A model generated the notes under the pieces. It had not been told where the DNA came from. It made no database searches and saw nothing but the letters and a program-made list of their open reading frames with translations. Of a stretch of 64,000 nucleotides of DNA, positions 1,748 through 49,385 are shown piece after piece (positions within the stretch are counted from its first letter, which is position 1; the number at the start of each line of letters is the position of its first letter). The position numbers and the translations under genes were made by a program. The stretch is from an uncultured Gammaproteobacteria bacterium (lineage in GTDB: Bacteria; Patescibacteriota; Microgenomatia; Levybacterales; UBA12049). The stretch spans positions 101,879-165,878 of the forward strand of contig OZ246394.1 of assembly GCA_965230895.1 (NCBI GenBank). The letters run 5' to 3'.

Positions 1748-2484
1748 ACCACAAAGACACAATCATTGAACTTGAGAATGTCTGTTTCACATATACAAAT
1801 GAAGAAGTTATCAAAGATGTTTCTTTGGTAATACATAAAGGAGATTATCTTGGCATTGTAGGCCCAAATGGTGGTGGAAAAACAACATTACTAAAGCTTA
1901 TGTTAGGTCTTTTACGACCATATGATGGCCGAATTTCTCTCTTTAGTACTGAAATTTCAGTCTTTAAGCAATGGCCTCGAATTGGATATGTCCCTCAAAA
2001 AACTGTGTTCGCAACGAACTTTCCAATAACTGTTGAAGAAGTTGTTGCTATGGGAAGATATGGTAAAAGGGGTCTTTTTCATTTTTCCACAAAAGAAGAT
2101 AAAATAAAAACTCACAAGGCACTGGATCAAGTTGATATGCTTGAGTATAAAGATCGTCAAATAAGTGAACTTTCCGGTGGACAACAACAGCGCGTATTTA
2201 TAGCTCGAGCGCTTGCAACTGAACCTGAGATTATTTTTCTTGACGAGCCAACAGTTGGTGTTGATGTAAAAACCCAAAAGCAGTTTTACCAGTTACTTCG
2301 TAAATTAAACAAAGAGCTTAACCTTACTTTAGTTCTTGTTTCTCACGAATTAGATGTAGTAGCGCATGAGGCAACTGAACTTGTTTATATTAATAGAACA
2401 CTTGAGTATTATGGTGATCCAAATGAATTTCTTAAAGGAGCATATTTCCATGAACTTATAGAAAAAGGAGGGCTCCACCACTAA
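1735..2484 (+). CDS. znuC: zinc ABC transporter ATP-binding protein ZnuC
   Basis: Walker A GPNGGGKTT, ABC signature LSGGQQQR, Walker B IIFLDEPT, H-loop SHEL. Confidence 0.85.
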   Translation: MQQLNHKDTIIELENVCFTYTNEEVIKDVSLVIHKGDYLGIVGPNGGGKTTLLKLMLGLLRPYDGRISLFSTEISVFKQWPRIGYVPQKTVFATNFPITVEEVVAMGRYGKRGLFHFSTKEDKIKTHKALDQVDMLEYKDRQISELSGGQQQRVFIARALATEPEIIFLDEPTVGVDVKTQKQFYQLLRKLNKELNLTLVLVSHELDVVAHEATELVYINRTLEYYGDPNEFLKGAYFHELIEKGGLHH

Positions 2485-3284
2485 TGTTAGATATTTTTCA
2501 ATATGGATTTGTTCTACGGGGTTTCCAAGCAGGAATTATTATTGCCATAATAGCACCGCTTATCGGAATGTTCCTTGTATTACGACGATATTCTTTGATT
2601 GCTGATACTTTGTCTCATGTCTCCCTTGCAGGCGTAGCAGTTGGATTACTTCTGAAAGTTAACCCGCTTATTACAGCAATTATTGCGGCGGTTTTATCGT
2701 CAGTACTTATCGAACGGTTGCGAATGAGTAAAAGAATTTATGGAGAATCAGCACTTTCGATTTTTCTTTCTGGCAGCTTAGCACTTGCTATCATTTTAAT
2801 AAGTTTGGCTGGTGGTTTTGGAGTTGATCTGTTTAGTTATTTGTTTGGAAGTATTGTTACAGTAAGGCAAAATGATGTCTATATTATAGCTGGACTTGGA
2901 ATTGCTGTTATTGGAATAATTATTGCTTTTTATAAGGAGCTTGTTTATACAACATTCGATGAAGAAGCTGCCCAAGTAAGTGGGGTGCCGACTAAGTTTA
3001 TTAATATACTACTAATTGTCCTTGCTGCATTAACTGTTTCTTTATCAATTCCCATTGTAGGGGTCTTACTTATTGCTGCGCTTATCGTCATTCCAGTTGT
3101 TACTGCATTACAGTTTAGGTTGGGATTTCTGCAAACTATAATCGTTGCTGAAGTAATTTCGATTGTTTCTGTTATCGGAGGTATAATTGCTGCGTATTAT
3201 CTCAATGTCTCAACTGGTGGAACAATAGTGCTTTTTACAGTGCTCGTATTTATAACAGCATATATGCTCCAGAGGGTTAAATAA
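2484..3284 (+). CDS. znuB: zinc/manganese ABC transporter permease ZnuB
   Basis: About 8 hydrophobic helices, ABC-3 family permease-like (266 aa). Start overlaps the znuC stop (TAATG). Confidence 0.8.
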   Translation: MLDIFQYGFVLRGFQAGIIIAIIAPLIGMFLVLRRYSLIADTLSHVSLAGVAVGLLLKVNPLITAIIAAVLSSVLIERLRMSKRIYGESALSIFLSGSLALAIILISLAGGFGVDLFSYLFGSIVTVRQNDVYIIAGLGIAVIGIIIAFYKELVYTTFDEEAAQVSGVPTKFINILLIVLAALTVSLSIPIVGVLLIAALIVIPVVTALQFRLGFLQTIIVAEVISIVSVIGGIIAAYYLNVSTGGTIVLFTVLVFITAYMLQRVK

Positions 3285-9528: not shown

Positions 9529-10470
9529 ATGAAAAAACCGGAATATCAAGTATTGCTCTACTATAAATATGTCGACGTTGCTATACCTGAGAAAGTCAGA
9601 GAAGAGCAGCGAAGACTGTGTCGTGAACTCAATTTAAAGGGACGTATCATTGTCGCGAAAGAGGGGATTAATGGAACATTGGAAGGTTTAACTGAAGATA
9701 CGGAAAAGTATATTGAAGCGATGGAACAAAGTGAATACTTTAAAGGTATTCATTATAAAAAAAGTCCTGGTGATGGAAAGGGTTTTCCAAAACTTTCAGT
9801 TAAGGCACGAGATGAAGTTGTTACTGCTCGCATGGTTGACCTTAACCCAAATAAAGTAACGGGAAAATATCTTACAGCAGATGAACTTCACGAATGGTTT
9901 GAGAGCGGGAAAGAGTTCTATATTGTTGATATGCGAAATGATTATGAATATAGTTCAGGTCATTTTGAAGGATTTATTCCTTCAGGCTTACATAATTTCT
10001 TTGATCTTCCAGATGTCTTGCCAAAGATTGCTCATTTGAAAAATAAAACAGTTCTTACAGTCTGCACTGGTGGAATTCGTTGTGAAAAAGCTTCAGGATT
10101 TTTAGTAGAAAATGGTTTTAACGATGTCTATCAATTACTTGATGGAATTCAAACATATATGGAGAAATATCCTAATAAACATTTCAAAGGGAAGTTATAT
10201 GTGTTTGATGGACGAATGACATTGGGCTTTAATACTGATTCTCCGGAACATGAAATTGTGGGCAAATGTTTCCACTGTGGCAAAGCAGCTGACACGTATA
10301 CCAACTGTGAATATGATATGTGTCATTATCATTATATCTGCTGTGAAGATTGTCATGATGAAGAAACTGGAATGACATTTGATAAACCAGAGTGTAAGGT
10401 GAATTACTTTAAGTACCAAAAACCTAAGATGGACGCAAAAAAGCAAAAATCTTCTCAAGCTTCAGCATAA
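9529..10470 (+). CDS. trhO: rhodanese-domain tRNA uridine(34) hydroxylase TrhO (UPF0176/YceA family)
   Basis: N-terminus (YQVLLYYKYVDVAIPEKVREEQRRLC...GRIIVAKEGINGTLEG) is characteristic of YceA/TrhO. Rhodanese active-site loop CTGGIRCEKAS. Cys-rich C-terminal tail. Confidence 0.7.
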   Translation: MKKPEYQVLLYYKYVDVAIPEKVREEQRRLCRELNLKGRIIVAKEGINGTLEGLTEDTEKYIEAMEQSEYFKGIHYKKSPGDGKGFPKLSVKARDEVVTARMVDLNPNKVTGKYLTADELHEWFESGKEFYIVDMRNDYEYSSGHFEGFIPSGLHNFFDLPDVLPKIAHLKNKTVLTVCTGGIRCEKASGFLVENGFNDVYQLLDGIQTYMEKYPNKHFKGKLYVFDGRMTLGFNTDSPEHEIVGKCFHCGKAADTYTNCEYDMCHYHYICCEDCHDEETGMTFDKPECKVNYFKYQKPKMDAKKQKSSQASA

Positions 10471-10544: not shown

Positions 10545-10967
10545 GTGGATCTACAAATAAATTACTTGGCTGTTCTTCTTGCTGGAATTGGTTCAATGGT
10601 TGTTGGTTTTCTTTGGTATTCTCATCTTCTGTTTGCAAAACCTTGGATGAAGCAAATGGGCTATACAAAAGAGAGTATGGCAAAAGAGCAGAAACAAGCA
10701 GGCCCTTGGTATGCATTGAGTTTTATTGCGGCACTTGTTACAGCATTTATGCTTGCGCATGTGATGGCTCTTTCTGAACACTTTTACGGATATACACCAT
10801 TGACGACAGGATTAACCTCCGCCTTTTTTATGTGGTTAGGTTTCGTCGCTCCAGTGCAGTTAACTGACGTTATATTTGGAAGTAAAAAGACAAAGCTTTT
10901 CCTTATAAATACAGGATACCAACTTACAGCTTTGGTTGTGATGGGTGTTGTGCTTGGCATTCTATAG
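10545..10967 (+). CDS. DUF1761-family small membrane protein (copy 1)
   Basis: Motif INYLAVLLAGIGSMVVGFLWYS...KPWMKQMG plus 3-4 TM helices. Paralogous to 30477..30869. Probable GTG start 6 nt after SD AAGGGGGTGA; the ORF-track ATG at 10521 contains the SD itself. Confidence 0.5.
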   Translation: MDLQINYLAVLLAGIGSMVVGFLWYSHLLFAKPWMKQMGYTKESMAKEQKQAGPWYALSFIAALVTAFMLAHVMALSEHFYGYTPLTTGLTSAFFMWLGFVAPVQLTDVIFGSKKTKLFLINTGYQLTALVVMGVVLGIL

Positions 10968-11051: not shown

Positions 11052-12176
11052 GTGGTACAATCTGTTGACCAAATGAGTCCAATATCTGAACCTTTGCCTT
11101 CGACGAAATGGTATCATCGTCGGTCTGTTTTACTGTTTTTTTCACTACTTTGTATTTGTGGTTTAGTAGGGCTTTTTATAATGCGAAACTCTTCTTCCCA
11201 ACCAGTCCAAAAAGTTACGAATACTATTAAAACTATGGCATCAATCCCGACTGATATTCCAAAACCAACTCCATATCCTTTTTATGACTTAACAATTCCA
11301 TATCTTCGTGAACAAACATACTTAAGTACCTTAAGTAATCTTGAAGAAGTTTCAAGTAATGATAGTTATACATCCTATGTGACGAGTTTTACATCTGATG
11401 GATTAAAAATAAATGGATGGTTAACACGTCCAGCTGGAGATATGCCTGAGGGTGGATGGCCAGCGATTGTATTCATCCATGGATATTTACCACCACGTTC
11501 ATATGAGACCTTGGGCCAACCATATTCAACATATGTAGATTATCTTGCGAAGAATGGATTTGTTGTCTACAAAATTGACCTTCGTGGACATGGTAATTCA
11601 CAGGGAGAGCCAGGTGGGGCTTACTATTCATCAGATTATGTTATTGATACGCTTAATGCGTACAGTGCTTTACAAAAAGCCGATTTTGTAAATCCTAAAA
11701 AAGTTGGAATCTGGGGACACAGTATGGCAGGAAATGTTTCAATGAGAGCTGTTGCTACGAAACCAGATATTCCAGCTGTTGTTATCTGGGGCGGGGCAGG
11801 ATATACATATACTGATTTAATTTCATATCGAATTACAGATTCAAGCTATGACCCTTCTCAAAGTAGTGCTACTCGAACTCGGAAAAGAGAGCAAATCCGC
11901 AAGCTTTACGGAGATCCTGATCCTACAAAAGTTTTTTGGCAACAAATGGCACCAACAAGTTATTTACGTGATATCACGGGAGCAATAGAGTTACATCATG
12001 CAGAGGACGATAATGTGGTTGATGTTCGTTATAGTCGTGACCTTAATGCACTTTTAGATAAAACTTCTGTGAATCATGAGTTTTATGAATATCCAACTGG
12101 AGGCCATAATATTTCTGGAGAAAGTTTTACTGTTGCTATGCAGCGAACAGTAGATTTTTTTAAGAAGTATTTGTAG
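11052..12176 (+). CDS. membrane-anchored alpha/beta-hydrolase (S9/dienelactone-hydrolase-like serine hydrolase)
   Basis: N-terminal TM. Nucleophile elbow GIWGHSMAG (GxSxG), with Asp and His candidates downstream (HAEDD, GGHN). Confidence 0.6.
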   Translation: MVQSVDQMSPISEPLPSTKWYHRRSVLLFFSLLCICGLVGLFIMRNSSSQPVQKVTNTIKTMASIPTDIPKPTPYPFYDLTIPYLREQTYLSTLSNLEEVSSNDSYTSYVTSFTSDGLKINGWLTRPAGDMPEGGWPAIVFIHGYLPPRSYETLGQPYSTYVDYLAKNGFVVYKIDLRGHGNSQGEPGGAYYSSDYVIDTLNAYSALQKADFVNPKKVGIWGHSMAGNVSMRAVATKPDIPAVVIWGGAGYTYTDLISYRITDSSYDPSQSSATRTRKREQIRKLYGDPDPTKVFWQQMAPTSYLRDITGAIELHHAEDDNVVDVRYSRDLNALLDKTSVNHEFYEYPTGGHNISGESFTVAMQRTVDFFKKYL

Positions 12177-19578: not shown

Positions 19579-20595
19579 ATGACTCGAATTATGAAAAAAA
19601 TTACAATGATTTCTGCGTTGACGGTTTTGATAACCGTTTTTATTACAGCATTAAGTGCGGTGCTTTTTACTGTGAATAACCCTCGTTCTGTTATCGAATT
19701 GATTGAGCCACTTGTCCCGACTGTAACACCTGCACCAATTCATATGAAAGGAATTGCAGTGCTCGGCGATAGTCAATCAGATGAATATCGGGCTGATGAT
19801 AATAGAGGATATAACTATCCTGCGAGCACATTAAATTGGGTTGAAATTTTGCATAACGAACGAAAAGTAAATTTTGGTAAATGGGGAGTATGGGATGAAC
19901 CACGTAGAACAGGGTACGAATATAATTGGGCACGAACAGGGAATACTACTGCTTCAATGATTGAGAGCGATCATCCAAGTGGCGTTGCTCAGCAAATAAA
20001 GGAAGGAAAAGTGAATGTGGTTGTTATTTTTATAGGTGCAAATGATTTTGCTCCTTATATTACGTCAGATGGATATGATGCAATATATAATGAACAACTT
20101 TCTGAATCCGCAAAAAAAAGAAAAGTAAATCGTGTGATTGCGGATATTAAAACAGCAGTTTATACAGTTAAAGATGCTGGCGATGTCCGAATTCTTTTGG
20201 TAAAAGTTCCTGATTGGGGACAACATGTTGGAGTACAGGTCGCTTTTCCGTTCCCTGATCAACGCGCAGAAGTGAGTGCTGTTATCAATGATGTAAATAA
20301 AGAGTTGGATAAATTAGCACAAGATGAGAATCTTTTGACACTTGATCCAAATGGATTTTATAGTGATATCGTTTATAAAAATGAAGACAAAGGAACGACT
20401 ATTGATGGTGTAAAGCTTGAACGTTTACTCCTCAATAATAATCCAAAGAATTTTTACCTTGAAGATGGCGTGCATACCGGAACGGTTGTGAATGGTTTGT
20501 TGGCAAATGAAATCTTGAAGAAAATTAATCTCATGATAGATAATGATGTTCCACTTTTGACGCAAAAAGAGATTCGTCAAACAGCTGGATTATAA
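19579..20595 (+). CDS. SGNH/GDSL-family hydrolase, membrane-anchored
   Basis: Block I GIAVLGDSQSDEY (GDS nucleophile). Block III VVVIFIGANDFA. Candidate block V DGVHTG. Confidence 0.65.
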   Translation: MTRIMKKITMISALTVLITVFITALSAVLFTVNNPRSVIELIEPLVPTVTPAPIHMKGIAVLGDSQSDEYRADDNRGYNYPASTLNWVEILHNERKVNFGKWGVWDEPRRTGYEYNWARTGNTTASMIESDHPSGVAQQIKEGKVNVVVIFIGANDFAPYITSDGYDAIYNEQLSESAKKRKVNRVIADIKTAVYTVKDAGDVRILLVKVPDWGQHVGVQVAFPFPDQRAEVSAVINDVNKELDKLAQDENLLTLDPNGFYSDIVYKNEDKGTTIDGVKLERLLLNNNPKNFYLEDGVHTGTVVNGLLANEILKKINLMIDNDVPLLTQKEIRQTAGL

Positions 20596-20934: not shown

Positions 20935-21498
20935 ATGAATAATTCGTTAGCAGGCAAAAAAATAGCAATTCTTGCAACAAATGGAGTAGAACAATCAGAG
21001 CTTATAGAACCACGTAAAGCACTTGAAGAAGCAGGTGCAAAAACAGAATTACTCTCAATCCAAGAGGGTGAAATTAAAGCATGGGACAAAAAAGATTGGG
21101 GGGAAGCATTTTCAGTTAATAAGATTGTATCTTCCGTCAAAGTTGAAGATTATGATGGCTTAGTTTTGCCAGGAGGAGTTATGAATCCAGACTTTCTCCG
21201 TACGAATAAAGATGCTGTTACTTTCGTAAAACAGATATATAAATCAGGAAAGCCAATAGCGGCAATATGTCATGGACCTTGGACACTTATCGAAGCAAAT
21301 GTGGTTATAGGAAAGAAATTGACGTCATGGCCATCACTTCAAACAGACCTACGAAACGCAGGTGCAGAGTGGGTAGACGAAGAAGTAGTTGTTGATCAAG
21401 GACTTGTAACTTCTCGTAAACCTGATGACATTCCAGCATTTAATAAAAAGATGATTGAAGAGTTCGCAGAAGGGATTCATCATCACCAGTATAATTAA
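20935..21498 (+). CDS. DJ-1/PfpI-family protein (class I glutamine amidotransferase-like)
   Basis: Nucleophile elbow AAICHGPWTL, preceded by GLVLPGG and followed by VDQGLVTSRKPDD; typical PfpI/YhbO layout. Confidence 0.8.
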   Translation: MNNSLAGKKIAILATNGVEQSELIEPRKALEEAGAKTELLSIQEGEIKAWDKKDWGEAFSVNKIVSSVKVEDYDGLVLPGGVMNPDFLRTNKDAVTFVKQIYKSGKPIAAICHGPWTLIEANVVIGKKLTSWPSLQTDLRNAGAEWVDEEVVVDQGLVTSRKPDDIPAFNKKMIEEFAEGIHHHQYN

Positions 21499-21536: not shown

Positions 21537-23270
21537 ATGGAAGTACTGCTTTTATTTGCTTTTCTTTCCGGTCTTGTCACTATATTTGCCCCATGTATAT
21601 GGCCTCTGCTTCCGATTATTTTGTCCGCAAGTTCTAGCGGTGGACATAGAAAACCGCTAGGGATAACATTAGGAATTGTTATTAGTTTTGCAGTAATAAC
21701 CCTCACCATTTCCTACATCGTAAAAATTATTCCTTTCAATCCAGACGCTCTCAGATATTTTGCTGTTATCATTATTGGAATTCTTGGATTATCATTAGTA
21801 GTTCCAGCATTATCGAAAATATTGGAAGGATCAATGAGTCGCTTGAGTGGGAAGTTAGGTCTTGTTTCAGACCCTAATAAAACTGGATTTTGGGCAGGCT
21901 TTTTAACGGGATTTGCTTTGGGTATCGTTTGGACTCCTTGTGCTGGACCAATACTCGCGACGATAGCAACACTTGCTGCAACTCAAGCAGTTAATTTTAA
22001 TGTTGTCCTTGTAACAATTGTCTATGTCATTGGTGTCGGTATCCCATTATTCATTTTTGCAACTGCTGGGAGCGCTCTCTTTGCCCGAAGTCGCTTTCTC
22101 TCAAAATATACGGGGAGAATACAGCAAGTCTTTGGAGTTATTATGATTTTGACAGCAGTTGCTATCGCAACAGGCTATGATAAGACTTTGCAAGTGCAGC
22201 TCCTTAACACGTTTCCTTCCTATGGAAAATTCTTAACAAATTTAGAAAATAATGAAGCAGTTACTAAACAACTTAATTCTCTGAAAGGGAATGAAAATTC
22301 GCAATCAAATAATCCTATTCAAATAGTTGGTGAAAGTGGAGATCCTGCACCAGAATTTACAGGGATTACAAAATGGATAAATACAGATAATAAACAATTA
22401 ACAATGAATGATTTGAGGGGGAAAGTTGTCCTTATAGATTTCTGGACATATACCTGTATTACCTGTATTCGAACATTACCGTATGTTACGGGGTGGTACG
22501 AGAAGTATAAGGACGATGGATTCGTCGTCGTTGGTGTGCATGCTCCTGAGTTTGAATTCGAAAAGAATACAGATAATGTCCTTGATGCTATCAAGCGCTA
22601 TAAAATAAATTATCCAGTTGCACAAGATAATAATTTTGATACATGGAAAGCCTACAATAATCAATATTGGCCAGCTAAATATCTCATTGATGCCAATGGA
22701 AGAATACGCTACTCTCATTTTGGTGAAGGTGACTATGAAAAAACAGAACAGGCAATTCAACAGTTACTACGGGAGAATGGCAAAAAGGTAGATACAAGCA
22801 TTGATAAAGCCGATGAATCAGTCTATTCAAATCAAATGTCTCCTGAAACATATTTCGGTTCTGACAGAATGCAATATTTGGTGACACAAGGAAGAGTTGA
22901 TAATGGCGTACAAACATTTACAATTCAAAAAACACTTCCAAATAATAGATTCTCATTTGGTGGACAGTGGAATATTACAGATCAGTATGCCGAGACACAA
23001 GCAATTTCTGCTTTAGCGTATAAATTTACTGCAAAGAAAGTTTTTATCGTTCTTAAAAAAGGTACTTCTGTTAATGGAACTATTCGTGTTCTCGTGGATG
23101 GCAAAGTTGTAGACCAAAGTATTGCTGGCGCTGATGTCAAAAACGGGATTGTCTCAGTTGAAAAGGACAGACTTTATGAGCTCGTCAATCTTCAAGAGAT
23201 AGGGACTCACTTGCTTGAGTTACAATTTATGAAACCGGGAATTCAAGTCTATACTTTTACTTTCGGCTAA
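21537..23270 (+). CDS. DsbD/CcdA-type transmembrane thiol-disulfide transporter fused to a thioredoxin-like (TlpA/redoxin) domain and a C-terminal beta domain
   Basis: Six TM helices with Cys in TM1 (FAPCIWPLLP) and TM4 (WTPCAGPILA). Redoxin domain with WTYTCITC (CxxC). A further ~170 aa of unknown function. Confidence 0.7.
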   Translation: MEVLLLFAFLSGLVTIFAPCIWPLLPIILSASSSGGHRKPLGITLGIVISFAVITLTISYIVKIIPFNPDALRYFAVIIIGILGLSLVVPALSKILEGSMSRLSGKLGLVSDPNKTGFWAGFLTGFALGIVWTPCAGPILATIATLAATQAVNFNVVLVTIVYVIGVGIPLFIFATAGSALFARSRFLSKYTGRIQQVFGVIMILTAVAIATGYDKTLQVQLLNTFPSYGKFLTNLENNEAVTKQLNSLKGNENSQSNNPIQIVGESGDPAPEFTGITKWINTDNKQLTMNDLRGKVVLIDFWTYTCITCIRTLPYVTGWYEKYKDDGFVVVGVHAPEFEFEKNTDNVLDAIKRYKINYPVAQDNNFDTWKAYNNQYWPAKYLIDANGRIRYSHFGEGDYEKTEQAIQQLLRENGKKVDTSIDKADESVYSNQMSPETYFGSDRMQYLVTQGRVDNGVQTFTIQKTLPNNRFSFGGQWNITDQYAETQAISALAYKFTAKKVFIVLKKGTSVNGTIRVLVDGKVVDQSIAGADVKNGIVSVEKDRLYELVNLQEIGTHLLELQFMKPGIQVYTFTFG

Positions 23271-28615: not shown

Positions 28616-29320
28616 ATGGAAGAGATACATACAAAAATTATTGCTACTATCGGGCCATCAACGTTAGAATTCAATACATTCCAAAAACTTATTGATGCTG
28701 GAATTGACTATATTCGTATTAATACTGCCTATGGTGATGAGTATCAGTATCAAACAATTCTTGATAATTTAGCGAAGGCAAATAAGCATAAAACGGTGAA
28801 GCCAATATTTGATTTAAAAGGAGAACAGATTATTCCATTTGCTCTTAGGAATAATGTTTATATGTACGCACTTTCATTCGCTGAGAATAAAGAGCAAATT
28901 GCAAAATATCGTTCGTTACTTCCTGAATCATTTCTCATTTCAAAGATAGAATCAAAAAGTGGAGTGGAGAACTTTGATGAAATATTACATGCATCTGACG
29001 GGATTATGATTGCGCGAGGAGATCTCGGCGTTGCTGAAACATTGGAGAAAGTTCCACCAATGCAAAAGGATTTTACAAATAAAGCAAAAGTGAAAGATAA
29101 GTTTCTTATCACCGCAACAGAAATGCTTTTGAGTATGGTCGATAATCCAGAGCCGACAAGAGCAGAAGTCTCTGATGTTGCAAATGCAGTTTTTGATAAT
29201 TCATCGGCAGTTATGCTTTCTGAAGAAACTGCAATTGGAAAGTATCCGATTGAAACAGTTATTATGATGAGGAAAATTATTGTTGAAGCCGAGAAATGGC
29301 AATACAGCCATCAGTATTAA
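28616..29320 (+). CDS. minimal pyruvate-kinase-like protein (A-domain barrel only; no B-lid or C-terminal allosteric domain)
   Basis: PK motifs in order: KIIATIGP, IRINTAYG, DLKGEQI, ALSF, KIES, MIARGDLGV, LITATEMLLSM, PTRAEVSDVANAV, MLSEETAIGKYP. Only 234 aa versus ~470 for canonical PK. Confidence 0.55.
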   Translation: MEEIHTKIIATIGPSTLEFNTFQKLIDAGIDYIRINTAYGDEYQYQTILDNLAKANKHKTVKPIFDLKGEQIIPFALRNNVYMYALSFAENKEQIAKYRSLLPESFLISKIESKSGVENFDEILHASDGIMIARGDLGVAETLEKVPPMQKDFTNKAKVKDKFLITATEMLLSMVDNPEPTRAEVSDVANAVFDNSSAVMLSEETAIGKYPIETVIMMRKIIVEAEKWQYSHQY

Positions 29321-30476: not shown

Positions 30477-30869
30477 ATGCATGAGATAAATTATTTAGCT
30501 GTGCTTGTATGTGCCGTAGCAGGATTTGTCTTCAGTACTGTTTGGTATTCCGTGTGGGGTAAGCAAATGGGGAAATTGCATAAAGCATATGCTGGGAAAC
30601 AACAACCAAAACCATGGCAAATCCTTATCGAGTTTGCTCGCAATATAATCCTTGCACTAGTTATCTCTTTATTATTCGATTATATCGGCGTTTTTGATTG
30701 GATTGCTGGTATAGAATTCGGATTGATCCTCTGGCTTGGTTTCCCTTTGGTTTTACTAGCAGGATCTGTCCTGTGGGAGAAAGTGCCCGTAAAGCTTGCG
30801 ATGTTTCATTTGGGTGATTGGTTTGTAAAACTACTTCTTTTCTCTGTAATTATTGCTACTTGGAAGTAG
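30477..30869 (+). CDS. DUF1761-family small membrane protein (copy 2)
   Basis: INYLAVLVCAVAGFVFSTVWYSVWGKQMG mirrors copy 1 at 10545..10967. 130 aa, 4 TM. Confidence 0.5.
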   Translation: MHEINYLAVLVCAVAGFVFSTVWYSVWGKQMGKLHKAYAGKQQPKPWQILIEFARNIILALVISLLFDYIGVFDWIAGIEFGLILWLGFPLVLLAGSVLWEKVPVKLAMFHLGDWFVKLLLFSVIIATWK

Positions 30870-32479: not shown

Positions 32480-33796
32480 ATGGAAAAAAAATTGAAGTAT
32501 ATCATCGATTCTATACCAGATTTTGAAATTAGACTAAAAGCGGGTAAAAGAATATTAAAGAAACTTGAGAAATATACTGCAACTATTGAAAAAATTGAGA
32601 AAAAAGTGTTTACAGGTGGAGAAGGGCTTACTGCTCAGCTGGAAGAAGCAAAGAGAATCAATAAAGAAATTGCTGCATATTACACAGAAGCAAGCGAAAA
32701 CCTATCGACTCTAAAAGAAACAGTAAAGAGTATTGATTTGCTGAAAGAGGCTTTCGAAACTTCTTTGGAAACTACGAATACTTTGATAAGTAATGTAAAT
32801 GATCCTGAAACGGGAATTCAATCAAAGTTGAATGCTGCTAATGAAGATAAAAATGAGACTAGGAGTATCCTCTTGTCTGCTGAAAACACAAAAAAAGAAT
32901 TAGATACTAAAGTGGAATCTATTCAAGGACAGTTGCAAGAAATGGAACAACTTTATGATGATTTTATCGAAATAAAAACTAAAATTGATGACCCTACGAA
33001 CGGATTAATTAAGGTACTTTCTTCATCAACTGCAAAAAGAGATGAAATATTTGCAATAAAGAAAAAGGCAGATACTCTATTTGCTGATATTTTAAAAACT
33101 CGAGATGAATCTGTCGCGTTCACTACTGAAATTAAGAAGTACAAGGATGAGACAGAGCTTAATACTGAAATTATTCGAGCGTACGCGAAAGAGAGTGAAG
33201 AAAACAATAGTAAGATTGCACAAATATATGATATAGCAACAGGTAGGGGACTCGCGGGATCTTTTGATAAACGGAAAAAGGAGCTTTTACTGTCTGTTTG
33301 GATATGGGGCGCAGTTCTAGTTGTAAGCGTAGCTTCATATGTATTTGTTTTAATGTGGATTTATCACGAAACATTCCAGAAAGGGATCCCAAATATAGAT
33401 GTAGCAGCTTGGTATCGCCTAACCTTAACGTTACCTATTTTAGGTCTGATTGCATTTGCCGCATATCAGTATTCACGTGAGCGCAATTTTTTAGAAAAGT
33501 ATGCTTTTAAATCTGCAACTGCAGTTGCTCTAGAGTCATATACAAAACTTCTCACAGATAAGTTTTCAATGCATGAAACTAAGATTGTTAGATTTGTATT
33601 GAATGCAATGACAATGATATATAGAGAGCCTCACGACATTGAAAAGAAATATAAATTCAATTTTGGTATCAATAAAATCTTTAATCTTGGTGTAGAGGAA
33701 GATAAAATGGAGGAGATAACTGACTTTATTGAGAAATCAGTTGATGATGCAGTGGATATTAAAAATGAGAAGAATAAAGGAAAACCAACAAGATAA
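32480..33796 (+). CDS. coiled-coil protein with two central TM helices and a C-terminal domain, unknown function
   Basis: About 270 aa of K/E-rich heptad sequence, two TM helices (LLLSVWIWGAVLVVSVASYVFVLMWIY; LTLTLPILGLIAFAAYQY), then a ~110-aa C-terminal domain. Confidence 0.45.
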   Translation: MEKKLKYIIDSIPDFEIRLKAGKRILKKLEKYTATIEKIEKKVFTGGEGLTAQLEEAKRINKEIAAYYTEASENLSTLKETVKSIDLLKEAFETSLETTNTLISNVNDPETGIQSKLNAANEDKNETRSILLSAENTKKELDTKVESIQGQLQEMEQLYDDFIEIKTKIDDPTNGLIKVLSSSTAKRDEIFAIKKKADTLFADILKTRDESVAFTTEIKKYKDETELNTEIIRAYAKESEENNSKIAQIYDIATGRGLAGSFDKRKKELLLSVWIWGAVLVVSVASYVFVLMWIYHETFQKGIPNIDVAAWYRLTLTLPILGLIAFAAYQYSRERNFLEKYAFKSATAVALESYTKLLTDKFSMHETKIVRFVLNAMTMIYREPHDIEKKYKFNFGINKIFNLGVEEDKMEEITDFIEKSVDDAVDIKNEKNKGKPTR

Positions 33797-33833: not shown

Positions 33834-34937
33834 ATGAATCTATCAGTTGGTATTGTTGGGCTTCCAAACGTTGGGAAATCTACTTTGTTTAATGCGCTTC
33901 TCAAGAAGCAGGCGGCTTTGGCGGCTAATTATCCTTTTGCGACCATCGAACCAAATGTTGGGGTTGTCCCGGTTCCTGATTCTCGATTAACCAAACTTGG
34001 TGAGGTTACAAAGGAAGAAGAAAAGATGGCAGAATTGCCTCCGTTGAAGCCGGCATTGATCGAATTTGTGGACATCGCGGGTTTGGTGAAGGGTGCTTCA
34101 GAAGGTGCTGGACTTGGAAATAAATTTCTTTCTCACATCCGTGAAGTAAAGATCATTTCTCATGTTGTCCGTGCATTTGAAGATCCTGATGTCATCAAAG
34201 AAGGTGCAGTCGATCCGCAGGCTGATTACGAAGTTATCCAAGCGGAATTAATCATCGCCGATCTCCAAACAGTTGAAAAGCAGCGAGATGCAAAGGCTGT
34301 GAAGACTGATGCCAAGAAGAAATCCGCGGTTGAGAAACTTCTGAAAGGATTAAATGAAGGCAAAGCTGCGCGAGACATCAGTTTGACGGATGATGAAGCG
34401 GCATTTGCACAGGAACTCTTTTTGCTTTCCAATAAGCCTGAAATTATTGTCCTCAATGTCTCTGAAGATCAATATAGTCCTGAAGGGATTGCTGAAGTTA
34501 CCAAGAAATTTGCAGAACTTTTAAATCAACCAGAAGATAAGTTGGTTGTGATTTGTGCAAAGATCGAATCAGAACTTGCAACACTTTCCGATGAAGAAGC
34601 GAAGGAATATTTGGGTGATTTGGGGCTCGAAGCTTCAGGCTTGGAGCGATTGATTCAAAAGGCATATGACAAATTAGGATTGATCTCATTCCTTACAGCA
34701 GGGGAGAAGGAAGTCAAAGCATGGACCATTAAAAAGGAAACCGATGCTCCAAATGCTGCCGGAGCAATCCATACTGATTTTACAAAGAAGTTTATTAAAG
34801 CGGAAGTGATTAGTTTTGATGACTATGTCACGACTGGTGGACGCAAAAAGGCGAGGGAAGTAGGCAAAGCTCGTCTTGAAGGAAGAGACTACATCGTACA
34901 AGATGGCGACATCATCGAATTTAAAATTGGTGCCTAA
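33834..34937 (+). CDS. ychF: ribosome-binding ATPase YchF (Obg-family GTPase-like)
   Basis: G1 GIVGLPNVGKSTLFNAL, G2/G3 regions, the characteristic coiled-coil insert and C-terminal TGS domain (DFTKKFIKAEVISFDDYV). 367 aa. Confidence 0.9.
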   Translation: MNLSVGIVGLPNVGKSTLFNALLKKQAALAANYPFATIEPNVGVVPVPDSRLTKLGEVTKEEEKMAELPPLKPALIEFVDIAGLVKGASEGAGLGNKFLSHIREVKIISHVVRAFEDPDVIKEGAVDPQADYEVIQAELIIADLQTVEKQRDAKAVKTDAKKKSAVEKLLKGLNEGKAARDISLTDDEAAFAQELFLLSNKPEIIVLNVSEDQYSPEGIAEVTKKFAELLNQPEDKLVVICAKIESELATLSDEEAKEYLGDLGLEASGLERLIQKAYDKLGLISFLTAGEKEVKAWTIKKETDAPNAAGAIHTDFTKKFIKAEVISFDDYVTTGGRKKAREVGKARLEGRDYIVQDGDIIEFKIGA

Positions 34938-34993: not shown

Positions 34994-36637
34994 ATGCCTA
35001 TCGAACGATTTCGTCAAGGAGCAGAGCGAAGAAAACGCAAACATTTGATCGATTCTGCGCTTGCTCAAAAAGATGAACAATCTGGGTCCTCTTCAGTAGC
35101 GAGTGAACCTCAACAAGCTTCAGGAAAAGAAGCGCCATTCTTTTCTGGTAAACGTAAAGGAGTTATCTTAACGACAGCTCTGGGTGCAGCAGCAGTCTTT
35201 CTTGGTAACAAAGTATATCGAGATAAGGAAACAGGTGAATTCCAAAAAGAAGCGTTAGCAAAGTCAGTAAAGAAGGCTGCGACTATTGGTCCTGTTGAAG
35301 GATTGATCGGTGTTGCGGGTATTACAATCCGTGATCATCGAGAATTAACGCATCGCAGTGTTGAGCTTGCTCCGTGGTTGCAAAAGGTACTGGATTTTGA
35401 GCAACGTTCTTTGGGCGTCCGTGAACCATACACTTGGGCATCTGTGCATCGAATTCATCATGAAATGACAGATGCTTCCTTATATCCTTTCTACCTGGCG
35501 TACCATGCTGTCAAATCTGCTGAAGCAAATGGTGCTCCTGTAGCCCCTGAACATAAATTTAAAAATTTTGATCCATTTGTAGAGCATTTTGATTTGAAAA
35601 CAGTTATGGATATAGGAGAAAGTGCTGATGCTGTTGTCAAAAAACGTATGGGAGATCTCTACGAACCTCCAATATTTGATAATCCGGAACAAATTAAAGA
35701 CGTGATTGAAGCCGAAAAACCTTTGTATTGGTATCCTGATTACAGCAAGAAAAAAGGGAGAGACGAATATGAGCCAAATGATATTGCCAGAATTCTACTT
35801 ACTGACCCGCATTCTCCAGCATTAGTTCGTCGCGAAAATGGAGTGCAAGGTGTGGCAATGACAAATATAAGTCTCTATCAGACCGCTGCTGCAATGTTCC
35901 GACATTTTCCTGAGATAAAACCTGAAGATCTTCAACGACCAGAGGATTTCGATCCTACTTACCAAGAACGCCATAAAAATGATGCGAAGAAAACATTTTA
36001 TGCTGGTTTTGTAGGACAAGCTGCTGCAATGTATGTCGTAAATCGGGATTATACATGGAGAGGTGCAGGAAGAGCAGTTTTGGAAGGAGCAGCTATCAAT
36101 GGTCTCAGAGCAGCGACAGAATTAGTTGGAGGAAATGTCACAAATTCAGCTGGGCATATGGGAGATCCTGTCCAAACAGAACTTGCTCAAGCATTCTTAA
36201 ATAGGATTTATGATATAAAACTCAAGCCTGATGGATCAATATCTACAAATACAGTAGGTAAAGGAGTTGTCGGGAGAGTTGCAAGTTGGGCGACGCTTGA
36301 TGAAGTTGGTGGGCAAGAAGTCCATCATCGAGCGCCTTGGAAGGTACGATATACAGATGCAGAGGGAAGACAGGCCGTTGTCGAGGCTCCATGGGGAAGC
36401 TTCCTTGAGTATCTCGCCAAAAATGAACATGTCAGTGCAATTAACGAAGGTGCAGGATTTGCTGGTGAAGAAAATGATCGTCCTGATGTTGTACATCGTG
36501 CTGTACGAAAAATTCAAGATGCAAGAGCTGAGCAGTATCAAAGAGATTATCCTGATGGAGAACCTGAGGAAGAACCTCCACTTTCAGGTGGAATAAGTCG
36601 TCTTGGTAGAACTCTTTTTAGCCGATTCCGCAGATAA
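34994..36637 (+). CDS. Delta9-desaturase-family (acyl-CoA/acyl-lipid desaturase-like) di-iron His-box protein, atypical: reduced TM content and a large hydrophilic insertion
   Basis: Box 1 DHRELTHRS (cf. HRLWSHRS). Exactly 29 aa later, box 2 YTWASVHRIHHEM (cf. YEWARDHRAHHKF). Box 3 GGQEVHHRAPW (cf. GEGWHNYHHAFP). One clear TM (GVILTTALGAAAVFLG) before box 1. About 300 aa between boxes 2 and 3 versus ~130 in known enzymes. Confidence 0.55.
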   Translation: MPIERFRQGAERRKRKHLIDSALAQKDEQSGSSSVASEPQQASGKEAPFFSGKRKGVILTTALGAAAVFLGNKVYRDKETGEFQKEALAKSVKKAATIGPVEGLIGVAGITIRDHRELTHRSVELAPWLQKVLDFEQRSLGVREPYTWASVHRIHHEMTDASLYPFYLAYHAVKSAEANGAPVAPEHKFKNFDPFVEHFDLKTVMDIGESADAVVKKRMGDLYEPPIFDNPEQIKDVIEAEKPLYWYPDYSKKKGRDEYEPNDIARILLTDPHSPALVRRENGVQGVAMTNISLYQTAAAMFRHFPEIKPEDLQRPEDFDPTYQERHKNDAKKTFYAGFVGQAAAMYVVNRDYTWRGAGRAVLEGAAINGLRAATELVGGNVTNSAGHMGDPVQTELAQAFLNRIYDIKLKPDGSISTNTVGKGVVGRVASWATLDEVGGQEVHHRAPWKVRYTDAEGRQAVVEAPWGSFLEYLAKNEHVSAINEGAGFAGEENDRPDVVHRAVRKIQDARAEQYQRDYPDGEPEEEPPLSGGISRLGRTLFSRFRR

Positions 36638-43953: not shown

Positions 43954-44601
43954 ATGTCAAATATTGAATCATACCGTTCAAATGCAAAAGTTACTTTTAA
44001 AGAACGGGTAATCCAAGCGAAGAAGCAATATGATATTTTCATGTATGATCACGGACGTGATATTGCAGATGCTGCAACAGAAGCTCGTAGAGTAGGTGGA
44101 ATGGTAGAAACTGGACTAGTCCTGTTCAATAAGCCAAAGTGGGCAAGATCTGTAAGTTTGCCTATCTTAGCGACAGATCTGATCGATGGTCATTCTGCAA
44201 GAAAACATAAAGACGGAGCAACAACAGATGGAGGTCGTCGTGATCAGGAAATTGATAAACAGCGATCATTAATGGTTGAGATGGCATTGGTTGTAAGAGG
44301 GCGAATGGATTGGCGTCACTTTGCGTTGAGGACTGGTTCTGACATTGTTATGAATAAAGTTGTTCGTCCGTACTTCCAAGAGCGGGGGATTGATACGAAG
44401 GCAGGTTGGGCTGGAAAGGCAAGCTCAGCAACTGTTGCGGTAGCAGAAGTTTCAGCAATGGGTGAGCGTAATCCTAGTAGTATTCAACATATTGCCACAG
44501 GAGCAAAAATCGGAAGAGTGGGGATTTATACTGTGCAGTGGGGGAGAGAGTTGTTTAAAAAAAGAAGAGAGAAAGGGTCAGAACTACCTTTGGCGGCTTA
44601 A
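43954..44601 (+). CDS. hypothetical protein with a CDP-alcohol-phosphatidyltransferase-like Asp motif but little hydrophobicity
   Basis: DLIDGHSARKHKDGATTDGGRRDQEID approximates DG-x2-AR-x8-G-x3-D-x3-D with one extra residue. Locally GC-richer. Confidence 0.3.
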   Translation: MSNIESYRSNAKVTFKERVIQAKKQYDIFMYDHGRDIADAATEARRVGGMVETGLVLFNKPKWARSVSLPILATDLIDGHSARKHKDGATTDGGRRDQEIDKQRSLMVEMALVVRGRMDWRHFALRTGSDIVMNKVVRPYFQERGIDTKAGWAGKASSATVAVAEVSAMGERNPSSIQHIATGAKIGRVGIYTVQWGRELFKKRREKGSELPLAA

Positions 44602-48110: not shown

Positions 48111-49385
48111 CTATCTTTGTCCAGCTTTTGCAGCCATTTTAGTTCCAGCAATCGTTGCCACACTTGGCGCCGCAACAACTGCCGCAGCCGCAGCTGTTGC
48201 GGCTAGAAGGGCTACACCAAGAGCTTTCAAAAGAGTCTTAAGGAATCCTAATCTCTTTTTTTCATTTTCATCTCCATCCTTTTCAGCTTGTGCCATCTTG
48301 TCATCCAGTGAATCCGCCATTGCATTAGCAGCTGCGGCTGCACCTTCTGGGCCTGCGATATTTGCATTTACATTTGCGGCTTCAAGAACTGTTTTTACAT
48401 CTTCCACATACGCAGGATTTTCTGCTATTGTATCAAGCACAGATTTAAAATCTGTTCCAAGATCAGCTAATTCTTTTACATTCTCAGCTAATCGTTTCGT
48501 TGCTTGCTGTTCTGGCGTCAATTCAGAATCCGCCTTATTCTCAGTATCCGCAACTTCCTGGGCAATTTGTTCTGCTTCTGCATTTACTGTCGCAGGAGTA
48601 GCTTCTGGAGGAGGAGCAGAGTTATTTGTTGCTTCAACTGTTGCCCCTTGAGCTCTTTCATCAGCTGATGGTTCTTTGTATTGAGCTTGACCTTCCCAGT
48701 CTTTCCAATCTTTTTTCACTTGCTCAGCAGTTGCTTGTTCTCCTGTTTGGGGCGCTGGTGGTGTTTGCTCCGGTGCTTGAGGTGCTGTTGGTTGCGCCTG
48801 CTCTGCGGTTTGATTAGTTTGAGGTGCGGTGTCAGCTTGTTGCTTGAGCATATCCTCTGCGCCTTGAGATACTTGCTTTTCCATATCACTTAACGCCTTT
48901 TTGGCTGCTTCATTTCCACCATCTGCAAGGGCCTTGAGCTCTTCTGGAGTTTTGTTCATCATGTCATTGATTTGGTCTTGTTGAGCATCCAAGTTCTGAT
49001 TCTCTTGCGCAGGGGGTTGGTCACCTGGTTGCTCTGATCCTGACTCAGGCGGATTTGGATTTTCTACAGCTGGATTTGTTCCTTCTGGGGTAGTTTGTGC
49101 TGCACCTTGTTCCTTTTGCATCGTATCAACTAAATTATCACCTTGATTTAATTCATTTGCGAAATTTTTGACAGTATCTTCAATGTCTTGAGGGGTTTTT
49201 GCTGAATCTACAGTATTCTGTAAGTTTTCAGCTGCAGCAGATCCTGCATTTTGATTCTCTTGTCCGGCTGGATTTGTCGCTGGTGAGCCAGCTTCTACTT
49301 GTGGAGCAGCAGATGATTCAGGTTTTGAAACCGGAGGTGGAGTTGCTTCTGGTGTTGGTTGTGGCCCTGATGGCGCTTCAGCCAT
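48111..49385 (-). CDS. intrinsically disordered Ala/Gln/Pro/Glu-rich protein with C-terminal TM anchor
   Basis: About 390 aa of low-complexity sequence, then LGVALLAATAAAAAVVAAPSVATIAG. GC-richer than its surroundings. Translationally coupled (8-bp overlap) to the upstream 113-aa ORF. Confidence 0.5.
   Translation of the reverse strand: MAEAPSGPQPTPEATPPPVSKPESSAAPQVEAGSPATNPAGQENQNAGSAAAENLQNTVDSAKTPQDIEDTVKNFANELNQGDNLVDTMQKEQGAAQTTPEGTNPAVENPNPPESGSEQPGDQPPAQENQNLDAQQDQINDMMNKTPEELKALADGGNEAAKKALSDMEKQVSQGAEDMLKQQADTAPQTNQTAEQAQPTAPQAPEQTPPAPQTGEQATAEQVKKDWKDWEGQAQYKEPSADERAQGATVEATNNSAPPPEATPATVNAEAEQIAQEVADTENKADSELTPEQQATKRLAENVKELADLGTDFKSVLDTIAENPAYVEDVKTVLEAANVNANIAGPEGAAAAANAMADSLDDKMAQAEKDGDENEKKRLGFLKTLLKALGVALLAATAAAAAVVAAPSVATIAGTKMAAKAGQR

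What the first reader, a model, noticed from the sequence alone, without database searches (positions are those of the whole stretch)
34994..36637. Delta9-desaturase His-box protein rebuilt as a largely hydrophilic protein with a ~300-aa insertion
What the sequence shows: the 547-aa product has the three diagnostic histidine boxes of membrane Delta9 acyl-CoA/acyl-lipid desaturases. Box 1 is DHRELTHRS (cf. HRLWSHRS). Box 2, YTWASVHRIHHEM (cf. YEWARDHRAHHKF), falls exactly 29 residues after box 1, as in stearoyl-CoA desaturases. Box 3 is EVHHRAPW (cf. NYHHTFP). The re-entrant/TM segments that normally surround the boxes are mostly replaced by polar sequence; only one clear TM precedes box 1. About 300 hydrophilic residues sit between boxes 2 and 3, versus ~130 mostly hydrophobic residues in known enzymes.

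Inference: the di-iron centre is probably retained, but the membrane topology and possibly the substrate are different. In a reduced genome with no fatty-acid synthesis genes in view, an oxygen-dependent di-iron desaturase/hydroxylase-like enzyme is unexpected. It could act on scavenged lipids or on a non-lipid substrate.
Basis: partly seen in the sequence, partly recalled or inferred. Interest (0 to 1): 0.78.

Follow-up and report, generated by a model that had tools for sequence, protein, structure and literature searches.

The report
Divergent desaturase-like protein of ultrasmall bacteria
This gene encodes a real but highly remodelled relative of membrane fatty-acid Δ9 desaturases, found only in a few ultrasmall (CPR/Patescibacteria) bacteria; it keeps the iron-binding residues, has lost most membrane-spanning character and carries a new 100-residue domain, and its substrate is unknown.

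Summary

These show that the "~300-aa insertion" is mostly desaturase core. The new part is one ~108-aa domain of unknown fold between box 2 and DPHSP, plus three smaller expansions.

Eight His and Asn384 are conserved family-wide. The first His of box 3 is always Gln, as in active front-end desaturases.

The family is much less hydrophobic than classical enzymes (GRAVY -0.43 vs +0.05; 0.8 vs 3.3 TM-grade segments). It is unnamed and below the Pfam and NCBIfam cut-offs. Full-length members occur in about 18 CPR species among 185,579 genomes.

No conserved lipid or redox partner gene was found. The best reading is an O2-dependent di-iron enzyme, peripherally membrane-associated, acting on scavenged acyl chains. 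Catalysis and substrate are inferred, not shown. Verdict: a new variant of a known kind, of moderate interest.

The parts
34994..36637 (+). Complete CDS, 547 aa: a divergent Δ9-desaturase-fold (FADS-like) protein
34997..35080 (+). N-terminal basic helix (res 2-29), followed by a disordered linker (res 33-53). Part of the long N-terminal region found only in the window's subclade.
   Evidence: DSSP and pLDDT; alignment A1.
35159..35215 (+). Extra N-terminal hydrophobic helix GVILTTALGAAAVFLGNKV (res 56-74, KD 1.50). Probable membrane anchor, present only in long-N forms.
   Evidence: Hydropathy; helix H49-74 in the model.
35273..35329 (+). Pre-box-1 helix (res 94-112, KD 1.24). Equivalent to TM2 of SCD1; Ala/Gly/Val-rich.
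   Evidence: Aligned to SCD1 residues 63-80 and to classical Δ9 TM2; hydropathy.
35336..35353 (+). His box 1, HRELTH (H115, H120)
   Evidence: H120 is invariant. H115 is present in all non-truncated members. Aligned to HRLWSH / HRLLTH.
35447..35461 (+). His box 2, HRIHH (H152, H155, H156)
   Evidence: Invariant. Aligned to HRAHH of SCD1 with identical spacing from box 1.
35483..35791 (+). Family-specific inserted domain (about res 164-266), a small alpha/beta domain with no recognisable relatives
35804..35818 (+). DPHSP motif (D271-P275), the Δ9-desaturase motif that normally follows box 2 by 7 residues
   Evidence: Invariant. Aligns to DPHSP of the classical profile at the correct position. 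Seen as 'HHKYTDAERDPHSP' in classical relatives.
35960..36151 (+). Helical hairpin (H323-350 and H355-386) equivalent to TM3/TM4. Weakly hydrophobic here (best KD 0.86), with 5 charged residues in the last 30.
   Evidence: DSSP; collinear hhalign alignment; hydropathy comparison.
36143..36157 (+). NSAGH motif (N384, H388), counterpart of SCD1 Asn265/His269
   Evidence: N384 and H388 are invariant. Aligned to LVNSATH. The SCD1 active-site residue list is in PMC8533217.
36314..36328 (+). His box 3 variant, QEVHH (Q441, H444, H445)
   Evidence: Invariant, with Q in 31/31 members versus H in 21/21 classical enzymes. Aligned to HNNHH. QXXHH is the normal box 3 of active front-end desaturases (PMC5215697).
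36584..36634 (+). C-terminal basic amphipathic tail, SGGISRLGRTLFSRFRR (res 531-547). Shared only with the closest relatives; a possible membrane-binding helix.
   Evidence: Alignment and tail comparison; helix H536-546 at low confidence. The membrane-binding role is inference only.

Best explanation
The gene encodes a CPR/Patescibacteria-restricted, strongly remodelled descendant of a Δ9 (SCD/DesA-type) membrane fatty-acid desaturase.

Shown:
- It has the desaturase fold.
- It keeps the complete set of residues that build the di-iron centre in SCD1. These are box 1 H115/H120, box 2 H152/H155/H156, N384/H388, and box 3 H444/H445 preceded by Q441 in place of the first His.
- A new ~108-aa domain is inserted between box 2 and the DPHSP motif.
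- The four transmembrane helices of the ancestor have been reduced to weakly hydrophobic Ala/Gly-rich helices.

Inferred:
- The protein still binds two iron ions.
- It is reduced by a separately encoded electron donor and activates O2 to remove hydrogens from a hydrocarbon chain.
- The most likely reaction is desaturation of acyl chains that these fatty-acid-auxotrophic cells scavenge. It would work as a peripheral or shallowly embedded enzyme at the cytoplasmic face of the membrane.
- The inserted domain would act as a cap for substrate head-group binding or as a donor-docking surface.

My confidence that it is a Δ9-desaturase homologue with a conserved metal site is about 0.9. My confidence in the full functional statement is about 0.45.
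For: Homology:
- NCBIfam DesA gives E=3.4e-6 for the query, and 28/32 family members match it.
- 12/32 members hit PF00487.
- The family profile hits SCD1 4zyo at E=1.2e-4 and 4ymk at 1.6e-3.
- hhalign against 24 classical Δ9 desaturases gives 97.5% probability and E=6.6e-12. With the insertion removed this becomes 98.5% and E=2.7e-15, collinear through DPHSP, NSxGH and box 3.

Fold:
- AlphaFold pLDDT 87.6, pTM 0.83.
- The top 4 Foldseek hits are all SCD1, with probability 0.99-1.00 and TM up to 0.61.

Ligand conservation:
- The ligand residues are invariant across relatives down to about 33% identity.
- QXXHH occurs in active front-end desaturases.

Context:
- Full-length relatives occur only in CPR MAGs.
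- CPR bacteria are reported to depend on external fatty acids (PMC6851277).
- The window has no FAS or Pls genes but does encode a GDSL lipase/acylhydrolase, an alpha/beta-hydrolase and a weak CDP-alcohol phosphatidyltransferase hit.
- A TrhO-type oxygen-dependent tRNA hydroxylase architecture in the window suggests O2 exposure.
- GC3 is native.
Against: - There is no experimental or structural proof of metal binding. His geometry could not be measured because model coordinates are not exposed.
- No ferredoxin, flavodoxin, rubredoxin, cytochrome b5 or reductase is in the window or in any of the 7 neighbourhoods examined.
- No lipid gene is consistently linked. The only recurrent neighbour is ychF.
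- The protein is below the Pfam and NCBIfam family thresholds.
- The TM4 equivalent carries 4-5 charged residues and the window protein has no TM-grade segment. Access to membrane-embedded acyl chains may therefore differ, or the substrate may not be a membrane lipid.
- The family is rare even within CPR (about 18 species), so it is not a general CPR solution.
- Desaturase folds can be reused non-catalytically, as in 8xks_K, a subunit of an FtsHi motor complex.
Confidence: 0.45

Rival explanations
1. The fold and di-iron site are the same, but the chemistry or substrate differs. The protein would be a hydroxylase or oxidase acting on a soluble or carrier-bound hydrophobic molecule, not a Δ9 desaturation of membrane acyl chains. 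Candidates include acyl-ACP or acyl-CoA with unusual regiochemistry, lysolipids, and isoprenoid or polyprenyl cell-envelope intermediates.
For: - Loss of TM-grade hydrophobicity and a charged TM4 equivalent.
- A new domain inserted next to the catalytic core.
- The His-to-Gln change in box 3.
- Some relatives sit next to envelope genes: PBP2/MreC/MreB for P0013, and Wzy_C plus a transglycosylase for P0042.
Against: - The closest sequence and fold relatives are specifically Δ9 desaturases.
- The Δ9-type auxiliary motifs DPHSP and NSxxH are kept.
- The envelope-gene neighbourhoods are not conserved across the family.
Confidence: 0.3
2. The protein is a non-catalytic derivative: a metal-binding (Fe/Mn/Zn) sensor, a scaffold or a regulatory protein that only reuses the desaturase fold.
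For: - No redox partner or lipid gene is linked.
- ychF, which encodes a ribosome-associated regulatory ATPase, is a recurrent neighbour.
- There is precedent for a desaturase-domain protein acting as a structural subunit (8xks_K).
- A Fur/ZnuA metal-homeostasis block lies in the same window.
Against: - Every first-shell ligand position, together with DPHSP and the Asn of NSxxH, is strictly invariant across the family down to about 33% identity. That is typical of retained catalysis.
- The ychF linkage looks like lineage synteny (ychF-rpsF-ssb-rpsR) and is absent in other clades.
Confidence: 0.15
3. The finding is a chance resemblance of His-rich motifs in an unrelated protein, or an assembly chimera that joins a desaturase N-terminus to unrelated sequence.
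For: - Pfam gives no hit for the query itself.
- Sequence-only matches cover only residues 105-166.
Against: - Motif alignment is collinear through the C-terminal half.
- The identical 547-aa protein is on three independent assemblies.
- The architecture is conserved in all relatives.
- GC3 is native.
Confidence: 0.02

Closest known systems
Stearoyl-CoA Δ9 desaturase SCD1 (PDB 4ymk, 4zyo, 6wf2); Pfam FA_desaturase PF00487
   Same: - Box 1 HxxxxH and box 2 HxxHH have identical 31-residue spacing.
- The NxxxH element matches Asn265/His269.
- The HH of box 3 is present, and the DPH motif is present.
   Different: - About 17% identity or less.
- A 108-aa domain is inserted between box 2 and DPH.
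- The first His of box 3 is Gln.
- There are 0-2 hydrophobic helices instead of 4 TM helices.
- The NxxxH to box 3 loop and the C-terminus are longer.
- The CoA-contacting Arg-Asp before box 2 (my own recollection of the SCD1 structure) is Ser-Val here.
- No cytochrome b5 system is known in these organisms.
Bacterial Δ9 desaturases: NCBIfam NF049918 'DesA family fatty acid desaturase', and compact ~250-300-aa actinobacterial or planctomycete acyl-CoA/acyl-lipid desaturases
   Same: - Nearest sequence relatives: hhalign E=6.6e-12 to 2.7e-15.
- 28/32 members hit NF049918.
- Shared 'GxxGITxxxHRxLTHRS', 'WAxVHRxHH', 'DPHSP' and 'NSxxH' strings.
- Acidimicrobiales versions also have a short N-terminus with a single helix before box 1.
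   Different: - The classical proteins have box 2 to DPHSP separated by 7 residues and HxxHH as box 3.
- Their TM3/TM4 hairpin is strongly hydrophobic and their GRAVY is about +0.05.
- The query scores 26 bits against a 400-bit family cut-off.
Front-end (Δ4/Δ5/Δ6/Δ8) desaturases
   Same: The third box has the QxxHH form (PMC5215697).
   Different: - Front-end enzymes carry a fused cytochrome b5 domain with HPGG and are integral membrane proteins.
- No sequence or fold match specific to them was seen.
- The shared Gln is probably convergent.
Alkane hydroxylase AlkB (PDB 8sbb)
   Different: A much weaker match than SCD1. AlkB uses different auxiliary motifs, six TM helices and a rubredoxin partner.

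Membership tests
Δ9 fatty-acid desaturase (SCD/DesA type; Pfam PF00487, NCBIfam NF049918) | Box 1 HxxxxH and box 2 HxxHH with the family-typical spacing | tested here: met
   H115-x4-H120 and H152-x2-H155-H156. There are 31 intervening residues, as in classical enzymes. The residues are invariant in the family.
Δ9 fatty-acid desaturase (SCD/DesA type; Pfam PF00487, NCBIfam NF049918) | Box 3 HxxHH | tested here: not met
   Box 3 is QEVHH. Q is at the first position in 31/31 family members, against H in 21/21 classical Δ9 enzymes. The two C-terminal His are kept.
Δ9 fatty-acid desaturase (SCD/DesA type; Pfam PF00487, NCBIfam NF049918) | Auxiliary Δ9 motifs: DPH(S/N) shortly after box 2, and NSxxH (SCD1 Asn265/His269) before box 3 | tested here: inconclusive
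   Both motifs are present, invariant and collinear. DPHSP, however, is displaced about 108 residues from box 2 by the insertion.
Δ9 fatty-acid desaturase (SCD/DesA type; Pfam PF00487, NCBIfam NF049918) | Score above the curated family threshold | tested here: not met
   Pfam gives no hit for the query, and only 12/32 relatives give weak PF00487 hits. NCBIfam gives 26.4 bits against a cut-off of 400.
Δ9 fatty-acid desaturase (SCD/DesA type; Pfam PF00487, NCBIfam NF049918) | Four transmembrane helices (two hairpins) carrying the cytosolic catalytic cap | tested here: not met
   The query has no segment at KD19 of 1.6 or more. The family mean is 0.8 such segments, against 3.3 in classical enzymes. 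The TM4 equivalent has 4-5 charged residues. The helices are present in the model but are not TM-grade.
Membrane di-iron FADS-like superfamily (fold level) | SCD1-like fold | tested here: met
   [not shown]
Membrane di-iron FADS-like superfamily (fold level) | Ligand side chains converge on a di-metal site | not testable with these tools
   Model coordinates are not exposed. Convergence is inferred from the fold match and from the homologous positions of all ligands.
Membrane di-iron FADS-like superfamily (fold level) | O2- and electron-donor-dependent oxidation of a hydrocarbon chain | not testable with these tools
   This needs biochemistry. No donor gene was found nearby.
Front-end desaturases | Fused cytochrome b5 domain with an HPGG haem motif, plus QxxHH | tested here: not met
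   QxxHH is present, but there is no cytochrome b5 domain or HPGG, and no Pfam hit.

The most novel reading that the evidence does not exclude
An integral-membrane di-iron desaturase has been converted in a few CPR lineages into a largely water-exposed, peripherally anchored enzyme with a new cap domain. This would give bacteria that cannot make fatty acids an oxygen-dependent way to re-tailor lipids stolen from their hosts. It would be a natural 'solubilised' SCD fold, with a new way of presenting substrate or docking an electron donor.
Probability: 0.3. Interest if true: 0.72.

Novelty: new variant of a known kind. Interest (0 to 1): 0.55.

Why it matters
How CPR/Patescibacteria build and tune their membranes without fatty-acid synthesis is an open question. 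A conserved desaturase-derived enzyme would be a concrete, testable candidate for lipid remodelling after scavenging, and it would imply that these lineages use O2.

For enzymology, the SCD/AlkB class is hard to study because its members are integral membrane proteins. A naturally hydrophilic relative that keeps the whole ligand set could be a tractable model of the nine-His-type di-iron site.

The family also defines an unannotated protein family and a new small domain. The family is rare, however, and its function is unproven, so the impact is moderate until it is tested.

Tried and rejected
- Pfam scan of the query gave no hit. Family-level and profile methods were needed.
- hhalign of the isolated C-terminal pieces gave only short or weak matches: DPHSP at E=4e-4 and box 3 at E=0.06. 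These persuade only because they are collinear with the other motifs and agree with the fold result.
- The word-indexed search with the insertion alignment returned no hits. It also failed to recover the parent family, so that negative is uninformative. The exhaustive phmmer search showed no protein matching only the insertion in a different architecture.
- The afdb50 fold library was unavailable.
- Seven gene neighbourhoods were examined for a reductase, ferredoxin or lipid operon, and none is conserved.
- Literature searches for a CPR or Saccharibacteria desaturase-like family found nothing relevant.
- Recent horizontal transfer was rejected: GC3 is at the window mean, and the GC excess lies in codon positions 1 and 2.
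- Assembly chimera was rejected.
- Acidimicrobiales proteins were considered as intermediates. They are ordinary compact desaturases without the insertion. Their prominence in the scan may reflect the search pattern used.
Full report
**1. Observation**

The window holds a 547-aa ORF at 34994-36637 on the + strand. It contains DHRELTHRS (H115, H120), YTWASVHRIHHEM (H152, H155, H156) and EVHHRAPW (H444, H445).

The protein is hydrophilic: GRAVY is -0.59, it has no Cys, and no 19-residue window reaches the classical Kyte-Doolittle value of 1.6. The two best segments are residues 56-74 (1.50) and 94-112 (1.24). So the bare observation is real.

Two details are imprecise. The box 1 to box 2 distance is 31 intervening residues (H120 to H152), not 29, although it is exactly the SCD1 and classical spacing. 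Two weak hydrophobic helices precede box 1, not one clear TM.

**2. Is the desaturase resemblance more than chance?**

Yes.
- For the query alone, Pfam is silent. NCBIfam's DesA-family desaturase model matches residues 105-166 at E=3.4e-6, and human SCD1 is the top PDB hit at E=0.79.
- There is a coherent family: 55 relatives by word-indexed search, and 90 cluster representatives out of 1.84 billion by exhaustive phmmer, 67 of them below 1e-10. None carries an informative name.
- A 32-member alignment (A1) lifts SCD1 to E=1.2e-4. Individually, 12/32 members hit PF00487 and 28/32 hit NF049918.
- Profile-profile comparison with 24 classical Δ9 desaturases (A2) gives 97.5% probability and E=6.6e-12 over the TM2, box 1 and box 2 block.

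**3.

The family alignment has further invariant motifs: D271-P-H273-S-P275, N384-S-x-G-H388 and G-G-Q441-x-x-H444-H445.

Classical Δ9 enzymes found here read 'HHKYTDAERDPHSP', 'LVNSATH' and 'EGWHNNHH'. The first two strings are therefore the auxiliary Δ9 motifs. The second corresponds to SCD1 Asn265/His269, which belong to the crystallographic metal site (PMC8533217).

- When residues 164-266 are removed computationally, hhalign improves to E=2.7e-15 and runs straight through DPHSP. In permissive and global modes the alignment is collinear through NVTNSxGH/LVNSATH and LDEVGGQxxHHxxP/FGEGWHNNHHAxP.
- Interval by interval, this family against classical enzymes:
  - box 1 to box 2: 31 vs 31
  - box 2 to DPH: 115 vs 7
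  - DPH to NxxxH: 105 vs 91
  - NxxxH to box 3: 52 vs 28
  - C-terminal tail: 79 vs 51 (102 in the window protein)
- The '~300-aa insertion' is therefore mostly desaturase core. The new piece is one ~108-aa domain plus three small expansions.

**4. Fold**

- AlphaFold2 run on A1 gives a confident model (pLDDT 87.6, pTM 0.83), and all ligand positions lie in blocks with pLDDT of about 84-99.
- Foldseek against the PDB returns SCD1 entries as the only credible hits (4zyo, 6wf2, 4ymk; probability 0.99-1.00; target-normalised TM up to 0.61). Everything else has probability of 0.06 or less.
- I could not measure His-metal geometry because coordinates are not exposed. Convergence of the ligands is inferred.

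**5. The insertion**

Residues 160-272 fold on their own with high confidence (pLDDT 92.4, pTM 0.86). The elements are a helix, two short strands, a long helix and two short helices.

A database search with the insertion alignment returned nothing, but it also failed to find the parent family, so it is uninformative. In the exhaustive search no protein matched the insertion alone in another architecture.

The domain has no Cys and no haem or Fe-S motif, so it is not an obvious built-in electron carrier.

**6. Membrane character**

| Measure | This family | Classical Δ9 |
|---|---|---|
| Mean GRAVY | -0.43 | +0.05 |
| TM-grade segments per protein | 0.8 | 3.3 |
| Pre-box-1 helix, best KD19 | 1.54 | 2.01 |
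| TM3/4-equivalent hairpin, best KD19 | 1.49 | 1.86 |
| Charged residues in last 30 before NSxGH | 4.1 | 1.5 |

- Many members still have one or two helices near TM grade. A peripheral, monotopic or shallow-hairpin association is therefore more likely than a fully soluble protein.
- The window protein is the hydrophilic extreme of the family, with a hairpin value of 0.86.
- Its subclade (long N-terminus, n=8) has gained an extra N-terminal hydrophobic helix (residues 56-74 here). It also has a weaker hairpin than the short forms (1.17 vs 1.60; Mann-Whitney p=0.003). Those eight members are a single clade and not independent observations.
- The closest relatives also share a basic amphipathic C-terminal tail.

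**7. Organism and context**

- A scan of one genome per species (185,579 species) finds full-length relatives in about 18 MAGs. They are labelled Levyibacteriota, Microgenomates, Saccharibacteria or Patescibacteria, plus a few automatic labels that look wrong for ~1-Mb genomes with this gene content.
- All other hits cover only boxes 1-2 and are ordinary desaturases, mostly from Acidimicrobiales and Planctomycetota. Two that were inspected are compact ~250-aa enzymes without the insertion.
- The window is 92% coding with about 37% GC.
- The target's higher GC lies in codon positions 1 and 2 only. Its GC3 is at the window mean (z=-0.55), so it is not a recent import.
- The identical protein is on three independent assemblies.
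- Neighbourhoods: ychF-gene-rpsF-ssb-rpsR in the window and close relatives, and ychF nearby in two more distant members. Elsewhere the gene sits between dprA and PBP2/mreC, or next to a response regulator and Wzy_C. No reductase, ferredoxin or lipid gene recurs.
- Pfam scans covered about 60 of the window's 70 called ORFs, and most of the remainder (the ABC/MacB pump, truncated pyruvate kinase, YchF, S6, SSB, S18 and several DUF proteins) carry precomputed Pfam hits. None is a FAS II, PlsX/Y/C, ferredoxin, flavodoxin, rubredoxin or cytochrome b5 gene. The window does have a GDSL lipase/acylhydrolase, an alpha/beta-hydrolase and a weak CDP-alcohol phosphatidyltransferase hit.
- It also has a TrhO-type architecture (UPF0176_N-Rhodanese-Rhodanese_C), a family shown to catalyse oxygen-dependent tRNA hydroxylation.
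- CPR bacteria are reported to depend on external fatty acids (PMC6851277).

**8. Mechanism**

Shown:
- Homology to and fold of Δ9 desaturases.
- Invariance of eight His plus Asn384 and Gln441 at the positions that build the SCD1 di-iron site.
- A new inserted domain.
- Loss of hydrophobicity.

Established knowledge: QxxHH is compatible with catalysis in front-end desaturases (PMC5215697).

Inferred: the protein binds two iron ions, is reduced by a separately encoded donor, activates O2, and abstracts hydrogens from a hydrocarbon chain. The most plausible substrate is a scavenged acyl chain at the cytoplasmic face of the membrane, with the insertion acting as a substrate cap or donor-docking surface.

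Rivals:
- The same site with other chemistry or another substrate (0.3).
- A non-catalytic metal-binding or scaffold protein (0.15).
- Chance resemblance or chimera (0.02, effectively refuted).

**9. Comparison and membership**

The protein works like, and descends from, Δ9 desaturases. It fails several defining tests for membership of the curated families:
- It is below the Pfam and NCBIfam thresholds.
- The first His of box 3 is replaced.
- DPHSP is displaced by an inserted domain.
- The four-TM architecture is not retained.

I therefore file it as a separate, undescribed CPR-restricted subfamily of the membrane di-iron FADS-like superfamily. I found no publication describing it.

**10. Verdict**

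The anatomy needs correcting: the insertion is ~108 aa, not ~300; two further conserved motifs are present; and box 3 carries Gln. Function remains unproven. This is a new variant of a known kind, with interest of about 0.55.

Noticed in passing
window 9529-10470 (+): A 313-aa protein with the UPF0176_N + Rhodanese + Rhodanese_C architecture, i.e. TrhO/YceA type. TrhO catalyses oxygen-dependent tRNA U34 hydroxylation (PMC6599085). This is a second probable O2-using enzyme in a CPR-type genome.
   Followed up: partly
window 33834-34937 (+), and loci L001, L080, L082: ychF lies immediately upstream of the desaturase-like gene here and within a few kb of it in several relatives, usually with rpsF-ssb-rpsR downstream. 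This is probably lineage synteny, but it is the only recurrent neighbour.
   Followed up: partly
window 32480-33796 (+): A 438-aa protein with a long coiled-coil-like N-terminal half and two hydrophobic helices near residues 270-330. It has no credible family hit.
   Followed up: no
window 48111-49385 (-): A 424-aa low-complexity protein rich in Ala, Pro, Gln, Glu and Thr, with one C-terminal hydrophobic helix (LLKALGVALLAATAAAAAVVAAP). It is the strongest GC outlier in the window (GC 0.46, GC1 0.67, GC3 normal) and has no Pfam family. It looks like a tail-anchored, disordered surface or envelope protein.
   Followed up: partly
window 21537-23270 (+): A 577-aa fusion of a DsbD-type transmembrane domain with Redoxin/AhpC-TSA and Thioredoxin_10 domains, next to a DJ-1/PfpI protein (20935-21498). 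This is a thiol-redox or oxidative-stress block.
   Followed up: no
window 345-3284 (+): A Fur-family regulator followed by a ZnuA/ABC/ABC-3 metal-uptake operon. It could supply Fe, Mn or Zn, but no link to the di-iron protein was tested.
   Followed up: no
window 19579-20595 (+), 11073-12176 (+), 43954-44601 (+): A GDSL lipase/acylhydrolase, an alpha/beta-hydrolase and a weak CDP-alcohol phosphatidyltransferase hit (27.6 bits). These are the only lipid-related genes in the 64 kb, and they fit lipid scavenging and head-group remodelling better than de novo synthesis.
   Followed up: partly
window 28616-29320 (+), also L001 1799-2503: A 234-aa ORF matching only part of pyruvate kinase (PF00224), conserved at the same place in a relative. 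It is a truncated or split PK.
   Followed up: no
window 36584-36634 (+) (protein residues 531-547): A basic amphipathic C-terminal tail, SGGISRLGRTLFSRFRR, shared only with the two closest relatives (P0001, P0002). It resembles a membrane-targeting helix.
   Followed up: partly
loci L007, L010-L013: Several MAGs carrying full-length relatives are titled 'uncultured Gammaproteobacteria bacterium' or 'Methylomirabilota'. Their gene content and ~1.3-Mb size look CPR-like, so the taxonomy labels in the public records are probably wrong.
   Followed up: no
window 10596-10967 (+) and 30477-30869 (+): Two DUF1761 paralogues lie in the window. One is also present near the relative's locus (L001 3033-3464).
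   Followed up: no
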